Position numbers and translations under genes: made by a program. From the IMG/VR virus record IMGVR_UViG_3300023312_000045: 23,598 nucleotides of DNA; one strand, 5' to 3'. Positions 502-22,648 of the stretch are shown one piece after another (position 1 is the stretch's first letter; each line of letters begins with the position of its first letter). The notes under the pieces are model-generated. The model saw nothing but the letters and a program-made list of their open reading frames with translations, made no database searches and was not told where the DNA came from. The DNA is from a virus (taxonomy: Duplodnaviria; Heunggongvirae; Uroviricota; Caudoviricetes).

Positions 502-516
502 TTACCACAACGGTAA
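502..516. promoter_or_regulatory. TTACC-N5-GGTAA inverted-repeat site E, upstream of terS, embedded in tandem direct repeat ACTATTACCAC
   Basis: tTTACCacaacGGTAA read at 502-516; a second degenerate copy TTACCacggtGGTTA follows at 520-534; terS ATG at 534. Confidence 0.5.
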
Positions 517-3265: not shown

Positions 3266-3342
3266 TGGCGTGGCATGCAGGATTCGAACCTGCGACCAAC
3301 CGCTTAGAAGGCGGTTGCTCTGTCCAACTGAGCTAATGCCAC
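3266..3342 (-). tRNA. tRNA-Arg (anticodon UCU), phage-encoded argU-like
   Basis: Reverse complement folds as a canonical cloverleaf: acceptor GTGGCAT/ATGCCAC, D-stem GCTC/GAGC, anticodon stem ACCGC/GCGGT with loop CTTCTAA (anticodon TCT), T-stem GCAGG/CCTGC with TTCGAAT loop, discriminator G and encoded CCA. Confidence 0.88.
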
Positions 3343-3664: not shown

Positions 3665-3679
3665 TTACCTGAAAGGTAA
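3665..3679. promoter_or_regulatory. TTACC-N5-GGTAA site A, upstream of the portal operon; followed by TAATTA -10-like hexamer
   Basis: TTACCtgaaaGGTAA read at 3665-3679; identical 17-mer TTACCTGAAAGGTAATA also present at site B. Confidence 0.55.
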
Positions 3680-5670: not shown

Positions 5671-5963
5671 CAGATTACGAAGACGATCAACTGAAAGAAG
5701 AAAACGCCCGTAAGCAACGTGACATGGCGCAGCGTGAAATTGATGACATTCGCTTTGTCATGAGCAGTGAACAGGGGCGTCGCGTTGTCTGGTCGGTGCT
5801 GGAGAAAGGCCGTGTGTTTTCCGCTATCTCACCGATGGACGCTATGGCAATGGCATTTAATGAGGGGCAACGCAATCTGGCGCTGGAACTGTTTCAGCGC
5901 GTTATGGCGCATTGCCCTGAACAGTATTTGAAGATGGCCAAAGAGGCCAGTGAACAGGAGTGA
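5667..5963 (+). CDS. Small conserved head-assembly-associated hypothetical protein (98 aa)
   Basis: ATGA overlap with the portal stop; acidic helical protein between portal and scaffold. Confidence 0.5.
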   Translation: MTDYEDDQLKEENARKQRDMAQREIDDIRFVMSSEQGRRVVWSVLEKGRVFSAISPMDAMAMAFNEGQRNLALELFQRVMAHCPEQYLKMAKEASEQE

Positions 5964-8161: not shown

Positions 8162-8497
8162 ATGTCAGGTGAGAAACCAAGATACCTCGTTCTGCGCCTC
8201 TCTCATATCCATAACACTCTGTGGCCGGAGGGGGCAGAAATCGAATACGAAGGTGAGCCTGGTAGCGCACTGGAACCTGTTAACGATGCAGCCAGACAGG
8301 CAAAAGCAAAAGTTGCAGGAAAGGTGTCAATGGCAGCAACCAGCACCAAAATCATCAATGATGTGTCAGATGATGGTGAACTGGATAAGCTCCGTGAAGA
8401 GTACGAATTGCTCTTTAACGAGAAGCCACACCATAACGCTAAAGCCGAAACGCTCCGCGAGAAGATCGCAGATAAGCGTAAAGAACTGGGCGTGTAA
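8162..8497 (+). CDS. Hypothetical protein (111 aa)
   Basis: ATG 8162 preceded by AAGGTG; followed by a strong terminator. Confidence 0.5.
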   Translation: MSGEKPRYLVLRLSHIHNTLWPEGAEIEYEGEPGSALEPVNDAARQAKAKVAGKVSMAATSTKIINDVSDDGELDKLREEYELLFNEKPHHNAKAETLREKIADKRKELGV

Positions 8498-19827: not shown

Positions 19828-20388
19828 ATGAAGGCAATTATATTTTTTGTTTCAATATTGATGTCTGCATTTTCTTTTGCAGGGCAAAATGTTAAATGCG
19901 AACTTCAATACTTTGGAGATAGCGATAAATTTAAGGTAACTCAGTTTTCTTTTATGGGGATTCCATCTGATTCATACCTTTATACCTGTGCCGACTGTGG
20001 AGGCATCCAGATAAACGTGTTCCCATCTATTCAGACTGTTGCTTCCTACTCATTTGAAAACAACATTGATTTCGAAAGGAAAATCAATGCTGAATACAAC
20101 AGAAAAGACATAGCTAAACTTGAGATGGAAAACGTTACTCAAGGCGGGAGAATAAAATATTCAATCACCGATACTGGTTTGGCAGAGTTTTACCCAGAGG
20201 GCAAAAAGATAAGCTACCTCTACTTTTTAGCCAAGCAACAAAATGGTAAAGAACAAGTAGGTTATTCAGGATTTGTTACCTCTAACGGGGATAAGTCATG
20301 CTCAATTATTGCGACATATCCAGGAAAAGAAATTTCTTTTCTGGGAAGTAAATCTTTAAGCTACTTTATGAATCATATATCAATGTAG
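19828..20388 (+). CDS. Secreted/periplasmic hypothetical protein with Sec-type signal peptide (moron)
   Basis: N-terminus MKAIIFFVSILMSAFSFAGQ has n-h-c signal peptide organisation; coding DNA looks AT-rich relative to flanking virion genes; followed by a terminator. Confidence 0.6.
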   Translation: MKAIIFFVSILMSAFSFAGQNVKCELQYFGDSDKFKVTQFSFMGIPSDSYLYTCADCGGIQINVFPSIQTVASYSFENNIDFERKINAEYNRKDIAKLEMENVTQGGRIKYSITDTGLAEFYPEGKKISYLYFLAKQQNGKEQVGYSGFVTSNGDKSCSIIATYPGKEISFLGSKSLSYFMNHISM

Positions 20389-20401: not shown

Positions 20402-20426
20402 AGGCCGCTTTCGCGGCCTTGTTTTT
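20402..20426 (+). terminator. Rho-independent terminator (AGGCCGC-TTTC-GCGGCCT then TGTTTTT)
   Basis: Perfect 7-bp stem and T tract read directly. Confidence 0.75.
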
Positions 20427-20586
20427 AACGAATGCCACCGCCGCCAGGGCGGGAATCCGCAGAACGCCCACCGCAGCGGGAGCCGTCAGCAGCAGTGTCG
20501 CTGTCGTGCTGACAACGACCGGCAAAGGCCTGAGTTGAAGCTACCAGAGACAACAAAACGAACAGTGCAGCAAATGCTTTTTTCAT
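20425..20586 (-). CDS. Small secreted peptide precursor (53 aa: signal peptide plus about 31-aa mature Gly-rich peptide with two Cys)
   Basis: Internal Met of ORF 20425..20658 gives MKKAFAALFVLLSLVASTQAFA|GRCQHDSDTAADGSRCGGRSADSRPGGGGIR; the ORF-track upstream extension overlaps a terminator. Sits in a short patch that looks GC-rich, so an ORF artefact is possible. Confidence 0.35.
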   Translation of the reverse strand: MKKAFAALFVLLSLVASTQAFAGRCQHDSDTAADGSRCGGRSADSRPGGGGIR

Positions 20587-20655
20587 TGTGAAATTTCCAT
20601 CTATAAGCCACCTCAATGTGGCGTCAATGAGTGTAGCACTGACTTTTGTTTCGTC

Positions 20656-20681
20656 CACAAAAAAGCCCGCAACGCGGGCTT
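20656..20681 (-). terminator. Rho-independent terminator ending the 62-aa/110-aa operon
   Basis: Minus-strand AAGCCCGC-GUU-GCGGGCUU followed by UUUUUUGUG. Confidence 0.75.
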
Positions 20682-20683
20682 AT

Positions 20684-21016
20684 TCAGTTATTTACTTTCT
20701 TTGGCACTATTGCTGATAATGAGATCATAAAGCCAGTTAGAGCAGCAATAATTAATGGGAATATGAAAGCATCTGAAGTTCTCAGTGGATTCTTCATATC
20801 GAACAGAATAACAATGAAGAATGCGCTGGTTGCAAAAGTAGATGATGAATAAACCTCATTCATCTTGTATTGCAACTTATCCAAAGAAAAAGGAGGCGTA
20901 TCTTTGCAAACGGCATCCCATATCAGATGAACAGCAAGATAAGCAATGCACAGTATGAAATAAAACCTTGTCAATTGCTGTGCATCTCTGGGCGCAAGCC
21001 AAGATAAATCAGGCAT
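20684..21016 (-). CDS. Small integral membrane protein (110 aa, about 3 predicted TM helices); candidate immunity/partner protein
   Basis: Hydrophobic segments FYFILCIAYLAVHLIW, FATSAFFIVILF, AFIFPLIIAALTGFMISLSAIV; start lies 1 nt after the stop of the upstream 62-aa gene (translational coupling). Confidence 0.55.
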   Translation of the reverse strand: MPDLSWLAPRDAQQLTRFYFILCIAYLAVHLIWDAVCKDTPPFSLDKLQYKMNEVYSSSTFATSAFFIVILFDMKNPLRTSDAFIFPLIIAALTGFMISLSAIVPKKVNN

Positions 21017-21017
21017 T

Positions 21018-21206
21018 TTAGTTGGCTAACTTCTTTGCGGCATAGATAGCAGGGAGTGCAACAGCACCAGCCACAGCAAATGCATAGGCTATCCCAGCTG
21101 TAACAGTAAAAGCAGGAAGCAGGAAAGATAATCCGCCTGGTAGGGCAAAGCCTAAGCCCGCTCCGCCAATAATGGCCTTCAGCAATGTAATGATGTTGAT
21201 TTCCAT
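21018..21206 (-). CDS. 62-aa glycine-zipper hydrophobic membrane peptide (holin-like or toxin-like)
   Basis: Strong RBS GAGGGGG 4 nt before ATG; sequence MEINIITLLKAIIGGAGLGFALPGGLSFLLPAFTVTAGIAYAFAVAGAVALPAIYAAKKLAN is almost entirely Gly/Ala/hydrophobic with a KK-containing C-terminus. Confidence 0.55.
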   Translation of the reverse strand: MEINIITLLKAIIGGAGLGFALPGGLSFLLPAFTVTAGIAYAFAVAGAVALPAIYAAKKLAN

Positions 21207-21232
21207 GTTTCCCCCTCATGTAAACTCTCGGT

Positions 21233-21247
21233 TTACCTTTGGGGTAA
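21233..21247. promoter_or_regulatory. TTACC-N5-GGTAA site D, 27 bp upstream of the 62-aa gene start
   Basis: TTACCtttggGGTAA read at 21233-21247. Confidence 0.5.
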
Positions 21248-21318
21248 TAGTACTCTATTCACCCCCAGTCTGCAATCTGTACAGAATTATTTAAAGGCAC
21301 GTCCCTGTGCCGCCGCCG

Positions 21319-21975
21319 TCAGAAGAACCCTGCCTTGTCGTTGATGTACTCCGCGTGGGTCTGGATATCACGCAGGCATTTGCTCACACCGACGATGTAG
21401 CAGAACATGGTGGTCAGTTCCGCCGCCGCGCCCGATACATCGTGCCCGTCTTCCTGTAACTGGTTCAGCAGATTCATCAGCAGTGAGTTCTCCGTCAGGC
21501 CGAGAACACCAGACGGCGAATGAATCAGGCTGCGGTAGCCGGGCTTCAGTGGGGCGCTGTATTCTTTTTTGTCTTCCAGCTTGATCGCCTCCATTATGGC
21601 GGGCATGAAGCCTGACAAGACCTTCTCCACTTTTGTTTCTTGTTGTCTTAAACGTTTCTCGCATTCAATGAAGTAGCGTCGCACCTGGCGACCTTTTTCG
21701 TTACGCTCGACCATCGCCAGCTCTTTGGCTGTATCAAGGGTGAGGTGGTACTCTTTGCGGTTGTGGCCGCCTCTACCAGATGTTTGCTTTCCCAAATTGG
21801 AAAGCAAAATATAGTCTTGATTTTCAATGAATTCGTATTCTGATATGCGATTTGTAATCCATGCTGCAAACACCTTTTTAACACCTAAAAAAGCGTGCAG
21901 ATCGCGGGCATTACAAAGTAGGGCTGTTTCGTTAGATATAGTGCCGTTGAATACGGGGATGAGTTGAGCGTTCAT
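21319..21975 (-). CDS. Phage antirepressor, AntA-type N-terminal domain plus KilAC/ANT-like C-terminal domain
   Basis: N-terminal region ([29 protein letters not shown]...[33 protein letters not shown]) matches the AntA antirepressor domain as recalled; C-terminal 70 aa are paralogous to the 90-aa protein at 22293..22565. Confidence 0.75.
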
Positions 21976-22004: not shown

Positions 22005-22052
22005 ACCACCGCTGAGACCAATCAGATGGTGGTGAACTGAACGGAGTTGGTC
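22005..22052 (-). other. Pseudoknot-capable structured element in the antirepressor leader
   Basis: Interleaved complementary hexamers: ACCACC (22005-22010) with GGTGGT (22028-22033), and GACCAA (22016-22021) with TTGGTC (22047-22052). Confidence 0.3.
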
Positions 22053-22133
22053 TTACCGGCCTAAGTGGTACCGGCGTCCTTTCGGACCCCCATTCAGCCC
22101 ACCATAATTCTGGCATGACTGTGCTATACGCAT

Positions 22134-22156
22134 AAAAAAACCACGTCTGGCGTGGT
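22134..22156 (-). terminator. Rho-independent terminator between the two antirepressor-family genes
   Basis: Minus-strand ACCACG-CCAGA-CGUGGU followed by UUUUUUU. Confidence 0.7.
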
Positions 22157-22167
22157 ATGCGCCACTT

Positions 22168-22220
22168 AGTAATCCGGGAGACCAATCCCGGCACTGGATT
22201 TTGCCAGTGCCCGATTACTA
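22168..22220 (-). other. Structured RNA element (two hairpins enclosed by a 7-bp outer stem) upstream of the terminator; candidate 3'UTR-derived or regulatory RNA
   Basis: AGTAATC...GATTACT outer stem enclosing CCGGGA-GACCAA-TCCCGG and CACTGG-ATTTTG-CCAGTG hairpins, read directly. Confidence 0.3.
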
Positions 22221-22246: not shown

Positions 22247-22261
22247 TTACCGCAAAGGTAA
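22247..22261. promoter_or_regulatory. TTACC-N5-GGTAA site C, downstream of the 90-aa gene
   Basis: TTACCgcaaaGGTAA read at 22247-22261. Confidence 0.5.
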
Positions 22262-22292
22262 TAATAAACACTCCACTTGGTAATTGCAAACC

Positions 22293-22620: not shown

Positions 22621-22648
22621 TTGCAAATTACCTGAAAGGTAATATCTA
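22621..22648 (+). promoter_or_regulatory. Candidate sigma70 promoter for tailspike: -35 TTGCAA, 16-bp spacer, -10 TATCTA, with TTACC-N5-GGTAA site B (22628-22642) inside the spacer
   Basis: Hexamers and spacing read directly; operator-in-spacer geometry is typical of repressible promoters. Confidence 0.45.

What the first reader, a model, noticed from the sequence alone, without database searches (positions are those of the whole stretch)
20656..21247. Minus-strand two-gene membrane module (62-aa glycine-zipper peptide coupled to a 110-aa 3-TM protein) in a prophage accessory island: candidate toxin/immunity, abortive-infection or superinfection-exclusion system
Seen directly: a 62-aa ORF with strong RBS (GAGGGGG) encodes an almost purely Gly/Ala/hydrophobic peptide with a KKLAN tail. 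Its stop is 1 nt from the start of a 110-aa protein with three hydrophobic segments. The pair has its own upstream TTACC-N5-GGTAA site (21233-21247) and a strong terminator (20656-20681). It lies on the opposite strand to the virion genes, in DNA that looks AT-rich, at the position (between ejection-protein genes and the immunity-I-like locus) where P22 carries sieA. A small pore-forming peptide plus a cognate membrane protein fits a toxin-immunity or membrane-depolarising defence pair. The first 15 residues end in Gly-Gly (MEINIITLLKAIIGG), which loosely resembles a double-glycine bacteriocin leader, but the leader is more hydrophobic than typical, so that reading is weak. No endolysin or spanin is adjacent, which argues against a lysis cassette.
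Basis: partly seen in the sequence, partly recalled or inferred. Interest (0 to 1): 0.7.

Follow-up and report, generated by a model that had tools for sequence, protein, structure and literature searches.

The report
Coupled two-gene membrane cassette in prophage
Two tiny, translationally coupled membrane-protein genes of an undescribed family sit as swappable cargo in an E. coli prophage slot that appears to be controlled by the phage's own repressor; they are real and conserved as a pair, they are not a bacteriocin or the lysis cassette, and their function is still only inferred.

Summary
The features are all present at the stated coordinates. They are a 62-aa Gly/Ala-rich ORF, a 110-aa three-helix ORF starting 1 nt after its stop, an upstream TTACC-N5-GGTAA repeat and a downstream terminator.

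Both genes are under strong purifying selection. Neither matches any Pfam, NCBIfam, PADLOC or PDB family; the only hits are two PHROGs of unknown function. An exhaustive profile search shows the 110-aa protein belongs to a rare family of about 83 clusters. Every locus examined, including distant metagenome contigs, has the same kind of small Gly-rich gene just upstream. So the pair is an old, obligate two-gene module.

It occurs in Uetakevirus-type prophages, at a syntenic chromosomal site in eight Yersinia species and Sodalis, next to guaA in Serratia, and on one 4.9-kb Aeromonas plasmid.

The inverted repeat, promoter and terminator are not the pair's own. They belong to a phage cargo slot that holds other two-gene cassettes in relatives, one with a YafO-family toxin. 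The repeat occurs at 14 sites in phiV10 and is inferred to be the phage's genome-wide operator, so the cassette is probably repressed in stable lysogens.

The double-glycine-leader reading fails. My best guess, at low confidence, is a membrane-embedded toxin-antidote type module.

The parts
21018..21206 (-). Gene 1: a 62-aa Gly/Ala-rich membrane hairpin protein, predicted N-in/C-in. K10, G15, A21 and G47 are invariant across the family.
   Evidence: ORF. Family alignments. AlphaFold2 gives helices 5-21 and 25-61. Matches phrog_13406 only. Purifying selection.
20684..21016 (-). Gene 2: a 110-aa three-helix membrane protein, predicted N-out/C-in. Its cytoplasmic loop carries the conserved W-D..T-P..K motif. 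The start codon lies 1 nt after the stop of gene 1.
   Evidence: ORF. AlphaFold2 model. Family of 83 clusters. Family-wide charge distribution. Junction survey.
21211..21217 (-). Shine-Dalgarno sequence GAGGGGG of gene 1. Gene 2 has no Shine-Dalgarno sequence of its own.
   Evidence: Read directly from the sequence.
21233..21247 (.). Inverted repeat TTACC-N5-GGTAA, read as an operator of the phage backbone slot. Its first T is the last T of the -10-like hexamer.
   Evidence: The window holds 5 exact and 2 one-mismatch copies against 0.27 expected. phiV10 holds 14 against 0.6 expected, including sites between the repressor and cro-like genes. The repeat lies in the flank shared with other cassettes.
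21247..21275 (-). Promoter-like TTGCAG-17 nt-TACTAT of the slot. It is part of the phage backbone, not of the cassette.
   Evidence: Read. The same TTGC..-17-TA(A/C)(G/T)AT arrangement followed by the inverted repeat occurs in the Klebsiella, Citrobacter and HB37 prophages. It falls below the threshold of the consensus scan.
20655..20681 (-). Intrinsic terminator of the slot, shared with phages that carry other cassettes.
   Evidence: The stem is conserved and the loop varies in phiv142-3 and TL-2011b.
20686..21230 (-). Extent of the swappable cargo cassette: the two ORFs plus the RBS and leader.
   Evidence: Homology breakpoints with phiv142-3 and TL-2011b.

Best explanation
**Shown**
- This is an autonomous, translationally coupled two-gene module encoding two integral inner-membrane proteins of an undescribed family.
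- Gene 1 encodes a 62-aa Gly/Ala-zipper helical hairpin. Gene 2 encodes a 110-aa three-helix protein whose start codon (ATG, TTG or GTG) sits 1 nt after, or overlaps, the stop of gene 1.
- The pair travels as a unit. It is found in Uetakevirus-type prophages of E. coli, Klebsiella and Citrobacter, at a syntenic chromosomal site in Yersinia and Sodalis, at the guaA phage attachment site in Serratia, and on a small Aeromonas plasmid.
- In this prophage it is cargo in a fixed slot. The phage backbone supplies the promoter, the TTACC-N5-GGTAA repeat and the terminator.

**Inferred, regulation**
- That repeat is the phage repressor's genome-wide operator. The cassette would then be silent in the stable lysogen and switched on when repression is lifted, at infection or induction.

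**Inferred, mechanism**
- The two proteins assemble in the inner membrane. The membrane-perturbing activity of one is held in check by the other. That makes it a toxin-antidote (holin/antiholin-like) pair in which both partners are membrane proteins.
- Such a pair would serve addiction, host shut-down or exclusion of competitors.

**Unsettled: which partner is harmful**
- Composition (glycine-zipper hairpin) points to the 62-aa protein.
- Gene order, weak coupled start codons, sharing a slot with a small-ORF-then-YafO-toxin cassette, and the fact that only gene 2 is ever found disrupted point to the 110-aa protein.
For: **Obligate pairing**
- All 32 testable loci found through gene 2 have an intact gene 1 upstream.
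- So do distant metagenome relatives at about 25% identity.

**Coupling**
- In about 40 of 51 loci the junction is stop, 1 nt, start. The start is often TTG or GTG.

**Both are membrane proteins and nothing else**
-.

**Selfish or portable behaviour**
- The pair sits in a cargo slot. In TL-2011b that slot holds a small ORF plus a YafO-family toxin, and in phiv142-3 another small-plus-large ORF pair.
- It is present on a 4.9-kb plasmid with few other genes.
- In Serratia fonticola it is retained alone at the guaA 3' end, which is the Uetakevirus attachment site (PMC9782041).

**Regulation**
- The repeat overlaps the -10 hexamer both here and at the ant promoter.
- It is conserved upstream of the pair in all phage copies and absent from chromosomal copies.
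- phiV10 has 14 copies, including two between the HTH repressor gene and the divergent gene.

**Decay pattern**
- Gene 2 is frameshifted with gene 1 intact in S. fonticola and in one Klebsiella viral contig.
Against: - No toxicity, interaction or expression data exist. The mechanism rests on anatomy and genomic context only.
- There is no homology to any toxin, antitoxin, holin, immunity or defence family.
- Long vertical retention at one chromosomal site in eight Yersinia species and Sodalis looks more like an ordinary physiological gene pair.
- If gene 1 is the toxin, gene-2 frameshifts with gene 1 intact should be lethal.
- If gene 2 is the toxin, no precedent was found here for a 2-TM membrane antitoxin.
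- The family is rare (83 clusters among 1.84 billion representatives), unlike typical toxin-antitoxin families.
- The plasmid evidence is a single record.
- One of the two frameshifts lies in a T-run and may be a sequencing error.
Confidence: 0.35

Rival explanations
1. The pair is a non-toxic hetero-oligomeric inner-membrane complex with an ordinary cellular role, such as a small channel or transporter, or membrane-stress protection. Phages captured it from a host chromosome as cargo.
For: - It is syntenic and apparently vertically inherited at a core chromosomal site (corA-like gene | pair | SBP_bac_5, M14 peptidase, tpx, tyrR) in eight Yersinia species and Sodalis.
- The Yersinia copies share a conserved upstream direct repeat, TAAGGATA-N2-TAAGGATA, about 35 bp before a TACAAT -10 element. 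This looks like a response-regulator site.
- Stoichiometric coupling, small subunit first, is typical of membrane complexes.
- Gene 2 can be lost without loss of gene 1.
- Both genes evolve under strong purifying selection with similar divergence.
Against: - It shares a slot with toxin-type two-gene cassettes, under a repressor-type operator.
- It is present on a tiny plasmid and survives as the only remnant at a phage attachment site.
- Its distribution is patchy and rare.
- It has no transporter-like fold or family.
Confidence: 0.3
2. The pair is a superinfection-exclusion device that blocks DNA entry at the inner membrane. It would work like P22 SieA or T4 Imm and be made when the phage is active.
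For: - Its position matches P22 sieA: after the ejection-protein genes, on the opposite strand, beside an ant region.
- Within phages the pair is almost confined to about 38-42 kb podophage genomes of this one type.
Against: - There is no similarity to SieA and no Pfam superinfection-exclusion family matched.
- SieA works alone, whereas this is an obligate pair.
- The same pair is conserved in phage-free chromosomal sites and in distant bacteria.
- The pair occurs with different ejection-protein sets (848-aa versus 1129-aa types).
- The repressor-type operator argues against expression in the lysogen.
Confidence: 0.12
3. The pair is an accessory holin/antiholin-type regulator of lysis timing, made during lytic growth.
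For: - The small 2-TM Gly/Ala-rich hairpin with a short basic tail resembles pinholin architecture (recalled from my own knowledge, not tested).
- Expression is probably confined to the derepressed phage.
- The phage's own lysis cassette also pairs a 3-TM and a 2-TM membrane protein.
Against: - A complete lysis cassette exists elsewhere in this prophage type.
- Most relatives lack the pair altogether: 22 of the 534 E. coli genomes that match the flanking backbone query.
- No holin family matches and there is no relation to the phage's own holins.
- The pair occurs in chromosomes and on a plasmid with no lysis genes.
Confidence: 0.08
4. Gene 1 is a secreted class II microcin or Cdz-like glycine-zipper bacteriocin with a double-glycine leader, and gene 2 is its immunity protein.
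For: - Gene 1 meets several descriptors used for Cdz-like toxins in PMC5380434: length, a Gly-Gly at residues 14-15, glycine-zipper stretches and a short polar tail.
- CdzI is a three-TM immunity protein with no homologues.
Against: - Residue 14 is Ala in many homologues, so the -2 Gly is not conserved.
- The supposed leader is hydrophobic, carries the invariant K10 and runs continuously into the first TM helix.
- No C39-peptidase ABC exporter or type I secretion system is nearby in any locus examined.
- No bacteriocin or microcin Pfam family matches, even at E = 10.
Confidence: 0.04

Closest known systems
P22 sieA (superinfection exclusion A)
   Same: Same genomic position: just after the ejection-protein genes, on the opposite strand, beside the ant immunity region and before the tailspike gene. 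SieA is also a small inner-membrane protein with three predicted TM segments (PMC10461980).
   Different: SieA is a single 162-164-aa protein that acts alone and is expressed from the prophage. This is an obligate pair, shows no sequence or profile similarity to SieA, sits behind a repressor-type operator, and also occurs outside phages.
Caulobacter CdzC/CdzD-CdzI and class II microcin plus immunity pairs
   Same: A small glycine-zipper peptide next to a small three-TM protein that has no homologues.
   Different: There is no conserved G-[GAS] cleavage site, no exporter and no family match. The N-terminus belongs to a conserved membrane helix.
Type II toxin-antitoxin cassettes, specifically the small-ORF plus YafO-family toxin cassette in the same slot of phage TL-2011b
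   Same: Same slot, promoter/operator and terminator. Same geometry: a roughly 60-aa upstream gene coupled to a larger downstream gene.
   Different: Both products here are integral membrane proteins with no DNA-binding or nuclease-type domain. There is no homology to any toxin-antitoxin family.
Pinholin/antiholin pairs (e.g. phage 21 S21); comparison from my own knowledge
   Same: A small N-in/C-in two-helix protein with a weakly hydrophobic Gly/Ala-rich first helix and small-xxx-small motifs.
   Different: It is not in a lysis cassette, has no dual-start motif, matches no holin family, and its partner is a separate three-TM protein.
P1 immI (c4-icd-ant) region and dispersed C1 operators; this concerns regulation of the surrounding region and the comparison is from my own knowledge
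   Same: C4 antisense RNA and IsrK-like RNA lie upstream of ant. One operator motif is scattered over many promoters of the genome.
   Different: The operator here is a symmetric TTACC-N5-GGTAA. The phage is an epsilon15/phiV10-type podovirus.

Membership tests
Class II microcin / double-glycine-leader bacteriocin | Conserved N-terminal leader ending in G-[GAS], with -2 Gly essentially invariant | tested here: not met
   Residue 14 (the -2 position) is Ala in the Citrobacter, Klebsiella sp., Sodalis, Aeromonas and metagenome homologues. The supposed leader is hydrophobic and has an invariant Lys.
Class II microcin / double-glycine-leader bacteriocin | Dedicated C39-peptidase ABC exporter (with an MFP partner) encoded nearby | tested here: not met
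   None among the called genes and Pfam hits of any locus, nor in the E. coli prophage. An exporter acting in trans cannot be excluded.
Class II microcin / double-glycine-leader bacteriocin | Sequence match to a bacteriocin or microcin family | tested here: not met
   Pfam scan of 13 family members at E up to 10 found no bacteriocin or microcin family.
Cdz-like contact-dependent glycine-zipper bacteriocin | 60-151 aa, glycine-zipper stretches, short polar C-terminus (criteria of PMC5380434) | tested here: met
   62 aa, G17xxxA21xxxG25 and A40xxxA44xxxA48 motifs, KKLAN tail.
Cdz-like contact-dependent glycine-zipper bacteriocin | Adjacent type I secretion genes (CdzA/CdzB) and a cleavable leader | tested here: not met
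   No such genes in any locus. The leader is not conserved.
Phage holin / pinholin | Located in a lysis cassette with an endolysin and spanin | tested here: not met
   The lysis cassette (two holins, GH19 endolysin, DUF2514 spanin) lies after the tailspike gene. The pair is about 6 kb away on the other strand.
Phage holin / pinholin | Match to a holin family | tested here: not met
   No Pfam holin family matches. hhalign against the phiV10 holins gives probability below 1%.
Phage holin / pinholin | Forms lethal membrane lesions at a programmed time | not testable with these tools
   Needs expression experiments.
Type II toxin-antitoxin system | Two small, adjacent, co-translated genes that move as a unit | tested here: met
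   1-nt or overlapping junction in nearly all loci. The unit occurs in prophages, chromosomes and a plasmid.
Type II toxin-antitoxin system | Soluble toxin of a known family plus a DNA-binding protein antitoxin | tested here: not met
   Both proteins are integral membrane proteins with no Pfam, NCBIfam or PADLOC match.
Type II toxin-antitoxin system | One product is toxic and the other neutralises it | not testable with these tools
   Indirect evidence only: gene 2 is found frameshifted with gene 1 intact.
P22 SieA-type superinfection exclusion | Sequence relationship to one of the SieA types, including the cytoplasmic FnRYPnEAnnFNK motif | tested here: not met
   hhalign probability 0.1% and BLASTP E = 1.9 against P22 SieA. 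The motif is absent. Only type A (P22) was compared.
P22 SieA-type superinfection exclusion | Expressed from the prophage and blocks DNA injection | not testable with these tools
   The operator overlapping the -10 element suggests repression in the lysogen. No expression data exist.
Known anti-phage defence systems (PADLOC-DB v2) | Match to any defence-system protein model | tested here: not met
   No hit at E up to 10 for either protein.

The most novel reading that the evidence does not exclude
The pair founds a new class of toxin-antidote or conflict module in which both partners are small integral membrane proteins: a Gly-zipper hairpin and a three-helix protein. The class would be conserved as a syntenic unit from Enterobacterales to distant uncultured bacteria. 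Uetakevirus-type phages would plug it into a repressor-controlled cargo slot so that it fires only when the prophage is derepressed or on infection.
Probability: 0.2. Interest if true: 0.7.

Novelty: new variant of a known kind. Interest (0 to 1): 0.45.

Why it matters
If the pair is a membrane-embedded toxin-antidote or exclusion module, it adds a family that every current annotation and defence-finder misses. PGAP often does not even call gene 2, because it starts with TTG or GTG 1 nt after a stop codon. The exact gene 1 protein is seen on at least 1000 contigs and the exact gene 2 protein on 831 in public assemblies. The Klebsiella version of gene 1 is indexed in 2675 blocks of the collection.

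Whatever the function, the locus shows how this phage group handles cargo. A fixed slot supplies promoter, operator and terminator, different two-gene cassettes are swapped into it, and it is wired to the same inverted repeat that marks about 14 sites in phiV10. That makes timing of expression, not only gene content, part of what a cargo slot provides. If instead the pair is an ordinary cellular membrane complex, the finding is of modest interest.

Tried and rejected
- **Known-family searches all came back empty for both proteins.** These covered Pfam, NCBIfam, PADLOC and PDB sequence profiles, run on the single proteins and on family alignments. The only matches are PHROGs of unknown function.
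- **Distant relatives could not be traced to named genomes or viruses.** Profile-based locus searches failed because no stretch is conserved enough. Two single distant proteins found nothing in viral contigs. The word-indexed search recovered only four distant members, all on contigs under 3 kb.
- **Isolated phages lack the pair.** tblastn against 50,697 deposited phage genomes found no hit, so the pair is known only from prophages and viral contigs.
- **Literature searches found nothing on these proteins.** Searches used the RefSeq accessions and PHROG numbers. One early search was wasted on the word 'moron'.
- **Rejected readings.**
  - Double-glycine bacteriocin leader.
  - Lysis cassette.
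  - SieA homologue.
  - Inverted repeat and terminator as the pair's own signals.
  - LexA box or other recognisable host-regulator site at the slot, judged by eye only.
Full report
**1. What is in the sequence**

On the minus strand there is a 62-aa ORF at 21018-21206. It reads MEINIITLLKAIIGGAGLGFALPGGLSFLLPAFTVTAGIAYAFAVAGAVALPAIYAAKKLAN and is preceded by GAGGGGG at 21211-21217. Its TAA stop is followed by one base and then the ATG of a 110-aa ORF at 20684-21016.

A strong intrinsic terminator follows at 20655-20681. TTACC-N5-GGTAA lies at 21233-21247. GC is about 0.55 in the virion genes, 0.38 over gene 2 and 0.46-0.49 over gene 1.

Both ORFs are real genes. Between the E. coli and Klebsiella copies, synonymous sites are near saturation (pS 0.61 and 0.89) while non-synonymous differences are few (pN 0.05 and 0.08). 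The same pattern holds for Serratia, Yersinia and Citrobacter copies.

**2. Where the window comes from**

The window is a Uetakevirus (epsilon15/phiV10-type) prophage of E. coli. Its layout is a regulator gene, terminase, portal, capsid, large internal/ejection proteins, the region in question, an ant/Bro-N gene, and the start of a tailspike gene.

In the same prophage type the lysis cassette lies after the tailspike gene. It comprises two holins, a GH19 endolysin and a DUF2514 spanin. In strain TUM13773 the prophage abuts yfgI, which neighbours guaA in E. coli K-12 (gene order from my own knowledge). This fits the reported attachment site of this phage group at the 3' end of guaA (PMC9782041).

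The exact cassette is present in 19 of 5426 complete E. coli genomes. Three more carry alleles of 65-71% identity; two of these were inspected and sit in the same slot. No deposited phage genome has it. Nineteen IMG/VR viral contigs do, most of them about 36-45 kb.

**3. The two proteins**

*Family membership.* Neither protein matches any Pfam, NCBIfam, PADLOC or PDB-sequence family, whether tested singly or as families. They fall in phrog_13406 and phrog_36716, both of unknown function. Every source names them 'hypothetical'.

*Gene 1 product.* AlphaFold2 gives two helices, 5-21 and 25-61, broken at L-P-G (pLDDT 76). The family alignment shows invariant K10, G15, A21 and G47, and nearly invariant A16, G19, G24 and P31. 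With K10 and the basic C-terminus on the inside, the simplest topology is an N-in/C-in hairpin with a three-residue periplasmic turn (T-V-T).

*Gene 2 product.* AlphaFold2 gives three long helices (pLDDT 72). Across 64 family members the N-tail is acidic (0.8 K+R against 2.3 D+E). Loop 1 is basic (3.5 against 1.6) and carries the best-conserved motif, W-D..S..T-P.F..L..K. The C-tail is mildly basic. This gives N-out/C-in.

*Fold searches.* These return only generic helical bundles.

**4. The pair is an old, obligate unit**

An exhaustive profile search finds 83 clusters related to gene 2 among 1.84 billion representatives. Apart from one 3161-aa repeat-like outlier they are 76-156 aa long. The family is real but rare.

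Distant members, at about 25% identity, lie on short metagenome contigs of varied composition. Where sequence upstream of the gene is available, it holds a small ORF. Those that are complete (67-86 aa) have the same N-terminal signature (h-h-h-K-x-h-h-[AG]-G-A-G-x-G-[FM]-A) and a second Gly/Ala-rich helix.

Among loci found through gene 2 in species-representative genomes and viral contigs, all 32 testable ones have an intact gene 1 upstream.

The junction is stop, 1 nt, start in about 40 of 51 loci. The start codon is TTG in most Yersinia copies and several other enterobacterial and viral-contig copies, and GTG in a few. In the HB37 allele the genes overlap by 8 nt. Gene 2 has no Shine-Dalgarno sequence of its own. 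Its translation therefore almost certainly depends on termination-reinitiation after gene 1.

**5. Genomic contexts**

- **Prophage slot.** The pair occupies the same slot in Uetakevirus-type prophages of E. coli, Klebsiella and Citrobacter. The Klebsiella gene 1 protein is indexed in 2675 blocks of the collection, but callers often miss gene 2.
- **Yersinia and Sodalis chromosome.** A syntenic core site holds the pair in eight Yersinia species and Sodalis. The order is PFOR, a tilS-like gene, a corA-like gene, the pair, SBP_bac_5, M14 peptidase, MR_MLE, tpx, tyrR. No phage genes are present.
- **Serratia fonticola.** The pair lies directly at the 3' end of guaA, the attachment site of this phage group. 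It is most simply read as the sole survivor of a decayed prophage.
- **Other Enterobacterales.** Separate sites hold it in Kosakonia, Winslowiella and a Klebsiella species.
- **Plasmid.** One 4.9-kb non-mobilizable Aeromonas veronii qnrS2 plasmid carries it.

**6. The flanking signals belong to the phage, not the pair**

Homology with phiv142-3 and TL-2011b, which carry other genes at this position, runs up to 20685 and resumes at 21228-21232. The shared flanks thus include the terminator stem and, upstream, a promoter-like TTGCAG-17-TACTAT and the inverted repeat. The swapped cassette is only the two ORFs with their RBS.

The slot holds other two-gene cassettes in relatives:
- In TL-2011b, a 59-aa ORF overlapping a 181-aa protein that passes the Pfam YafO_toxin threshold.
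- In phiv142-3, a 55-aa ORF plus an unrelated 193-aa ORF.
- In phiV10, essentially nothing.

Every filled slot has a small upstream gene followed by a larger downstream gene.

**7. The inverted repeat is a genome-wide operator**

TTACC-N5-GGTAA occurs five times exactly, plus twice with one mismatch, in the window. The expected number is 0.27. The sites lie ahead of the terminase genes (two in tandem), near the portal side, ahead of the pair, ahead of the ant region, and in the divergent region before the tailspike gene.

At the pair and at the ant promoter, the repeat begins at the last T of a -10 hexamer with a 17-nt spacer.

In phiV10 there are 14 sites against 0.6 expected. Two lie between the HTH repressor gene (p40) and the divergent p41, and two lie on the early-left side.

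All phage copies of the pair keep this arrangement 41-52 nt upstream of the ATG: TTGC.., 17 nt, TA(A/C)(G/T)AT, then the repeat. The chromosomal Yersinia and Serratia copies lack it.

I infer that it is the operator of the prophage repressor. I recall similarly dispersed operators for the P1 C1 repressor and for mycobacteriophage L5; I did not check either here. If so, the cassette is repressed in a stable lysogen and expressed on infection or induction. Binding and expression are not shown.

**8. What it is not**

- **Not a double-glycine-leader bacteriocin.**
  - The -2 Gly is Ala in many homologues.
  - The supposed leader is hydrophobic, contains the invariant Lys and continues into helix 1.
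  - No exporter is nearby in any locus.
  - No bacteriocin family matches.
  - It does meet the loose composition criteria used for Cdz-like toxins.
- **Not the lysis cassette, and not related to the phage's holins**.
- **Not a detectable SieA relative**, although the position matches P22 sieA.

**9. What it most likely does**

The anatomy points to two proteins that act together within the inner membrane. They have no soluble domains, they are made in a coupled ratio, and they are conserved only as a pair.

The contexts argue for a selfish or conflict function. The pair sits in a cargo slot shared with a YafO-family toxin cassette and another two-gene cassette. It survives alone at a phage attachment site. 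It is present on a tiny plasmid.

I therefore favour, at about 0.35, a membrane-embedded toxin-antidote (holin/antiholin-like) module that is fired when the phage is derepressed.

Which partner is harmful is open. Composition favours the Gly-zipper hairpin. Gene order, weak coupled start codons, the analogy with the small-ORF-then-toxin cassette, and the decay pattern favour the 110-aa protein. In the decay pattern, gene 2 is frameshifted while gene 1 is intact: a 13-nt deletion in S. fonticola and a 1-nt T-run insertion in one Klebsiella contig that may be a sequencing error.

The main rival, at about 0.3, is an ordinary non-toxic membrane complex captured from a host chromosome. Its support is the long syntenic retention in Yersinia and Sodalis, and a conserved response-regulator-like direct repeat upstream of those copies.

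Exclusion of DNA entry (0.12), lysis-timing control (0.08) and a secreted bacteriocin (0.04) are less likely.

**10. Novelty and verdict**

The proteins belong to no described family, and I found nothing written about them. The kind of thing, a two-gene accessory cassette in a prophage hot spot, is familiar.

Three points are new:
- the family itself;
- the depth of its synteny;
- the possibility that both partners of a toxin-antidote pair are membrane proteins.

A side result is the picture of a repressor-wired, exchangeable cargo slot.

Function remains inferred. I score interest at 0.45.

Noticed in passing
window 502-516, 520-534, 3665-3679, 21233-21247, 22247-22261, 22628-22642; L059 (phiV10), 14 sites: TTACC-N5-GGTAA is a dispersed operator-like palindrome found at most intergenic promoter regions of this phage group. 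The window has 7 sites against 0.27 expected, and phiV10 has 14 against 0.6. Sites include the repressor/cro-like intergenic region. It probably allows one repressor to act directly on most of the phage's promoter regions.
   Followed up: partly
window 22025-22109 (-) and 22134-22210 (-): Rfam finds a C4 antisense RNA (61 bits) and an IsrK Hfq-binding RNA (68 bits). They lie between the operator/promoter at 22247-22289 and the ant/Bro-N gene (21319-21975), giving a P1 immI-like c4-ant arrangement in a podovirus.
   Followed up: no
window 19828-20388 (+): A 186-aa ORF with a signal peptide and GC 0.37-0.40, in phrog_11983 (unknown function), lies directly after the last ejection-protein gene. 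The equivalent position holds a Rap1a-like protein (a type VI secretion immunity family) in a Citrobacter prophage (L021) and other small ORFs in Klebsiella. This looks like a second variable cargo slot for secreted proteins.
   Followed up: partly
window 20425-20586 (-): A 53-aa peptide with a signal sequence and two Cys residues (phrog_14503, 'membrane associated protein') sits next to the slot. It is conserved in relatives whatever cassette they carry, and it lies after the slot terminator.
   Followed up: no
L025-L035 (Yersinia species), about 5700-5790, upstream of gene 1: A conserved direct repeat, TAAGGATA-N2-TAAGGATA, lies about 35 bp upstream of a TACAAT -10 element. It looks like a response-regulator binding site, and I could not assign it to a regulator.
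   Followed up: no
L008-L012, L038, L039 (Klebsiella and E. coli prophages): Gene callers, including PGAP, often fail to call gene 2, or call only a 59-aa fragment from an internal Met. The likely reason is that it starts 1 nt after a stop codon, often with TTG or GTG, and has no Shine-Dalgarno sequence.
   Followed up: partly
L004 and L006 at 8250-8262 (relative to L007); L057 about 6190: Natural frameshifts occur in gene 2 with gene 1 intact. One is a 13-nt deletion in two Serratia fonticola assemblies. The other is a 1-nt insertion in a T-run in one Klebsiella viral contig, which may be a sequencing error.
   Followed up: partly
window 3266-3342 (-): A tRNA-Arg (anticodon TCT) gene lies between the terminase and portal genes of the prophage.
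   Followed up: no
window 21207-21245 (-), 5' leader of gene 1: The leader can fold so that CCCC from the operator spacer pairs with GGGG of the Shine-Dalgarno sequence around a GUAAAC/GUUUAC hairpin (MFE -14.3 kcal/mol, z = -2.05). Klebsiella copies have a different hairpin (TTCAAC/GTTGAA) at the same place. This could attenuate translation or stabilise the mRNA.
   Followed up: no
L001 6052-6991 (E. coli TUM13773 prophage, between ant and the tailspike gene): A prophage that carries the membrane pair also carries a YafO-family toxin with an upstream 147-aa ORF in a further slot between the ant region and the tailspike gene. The region therefore holds several cargo positions.
   Followed up: no
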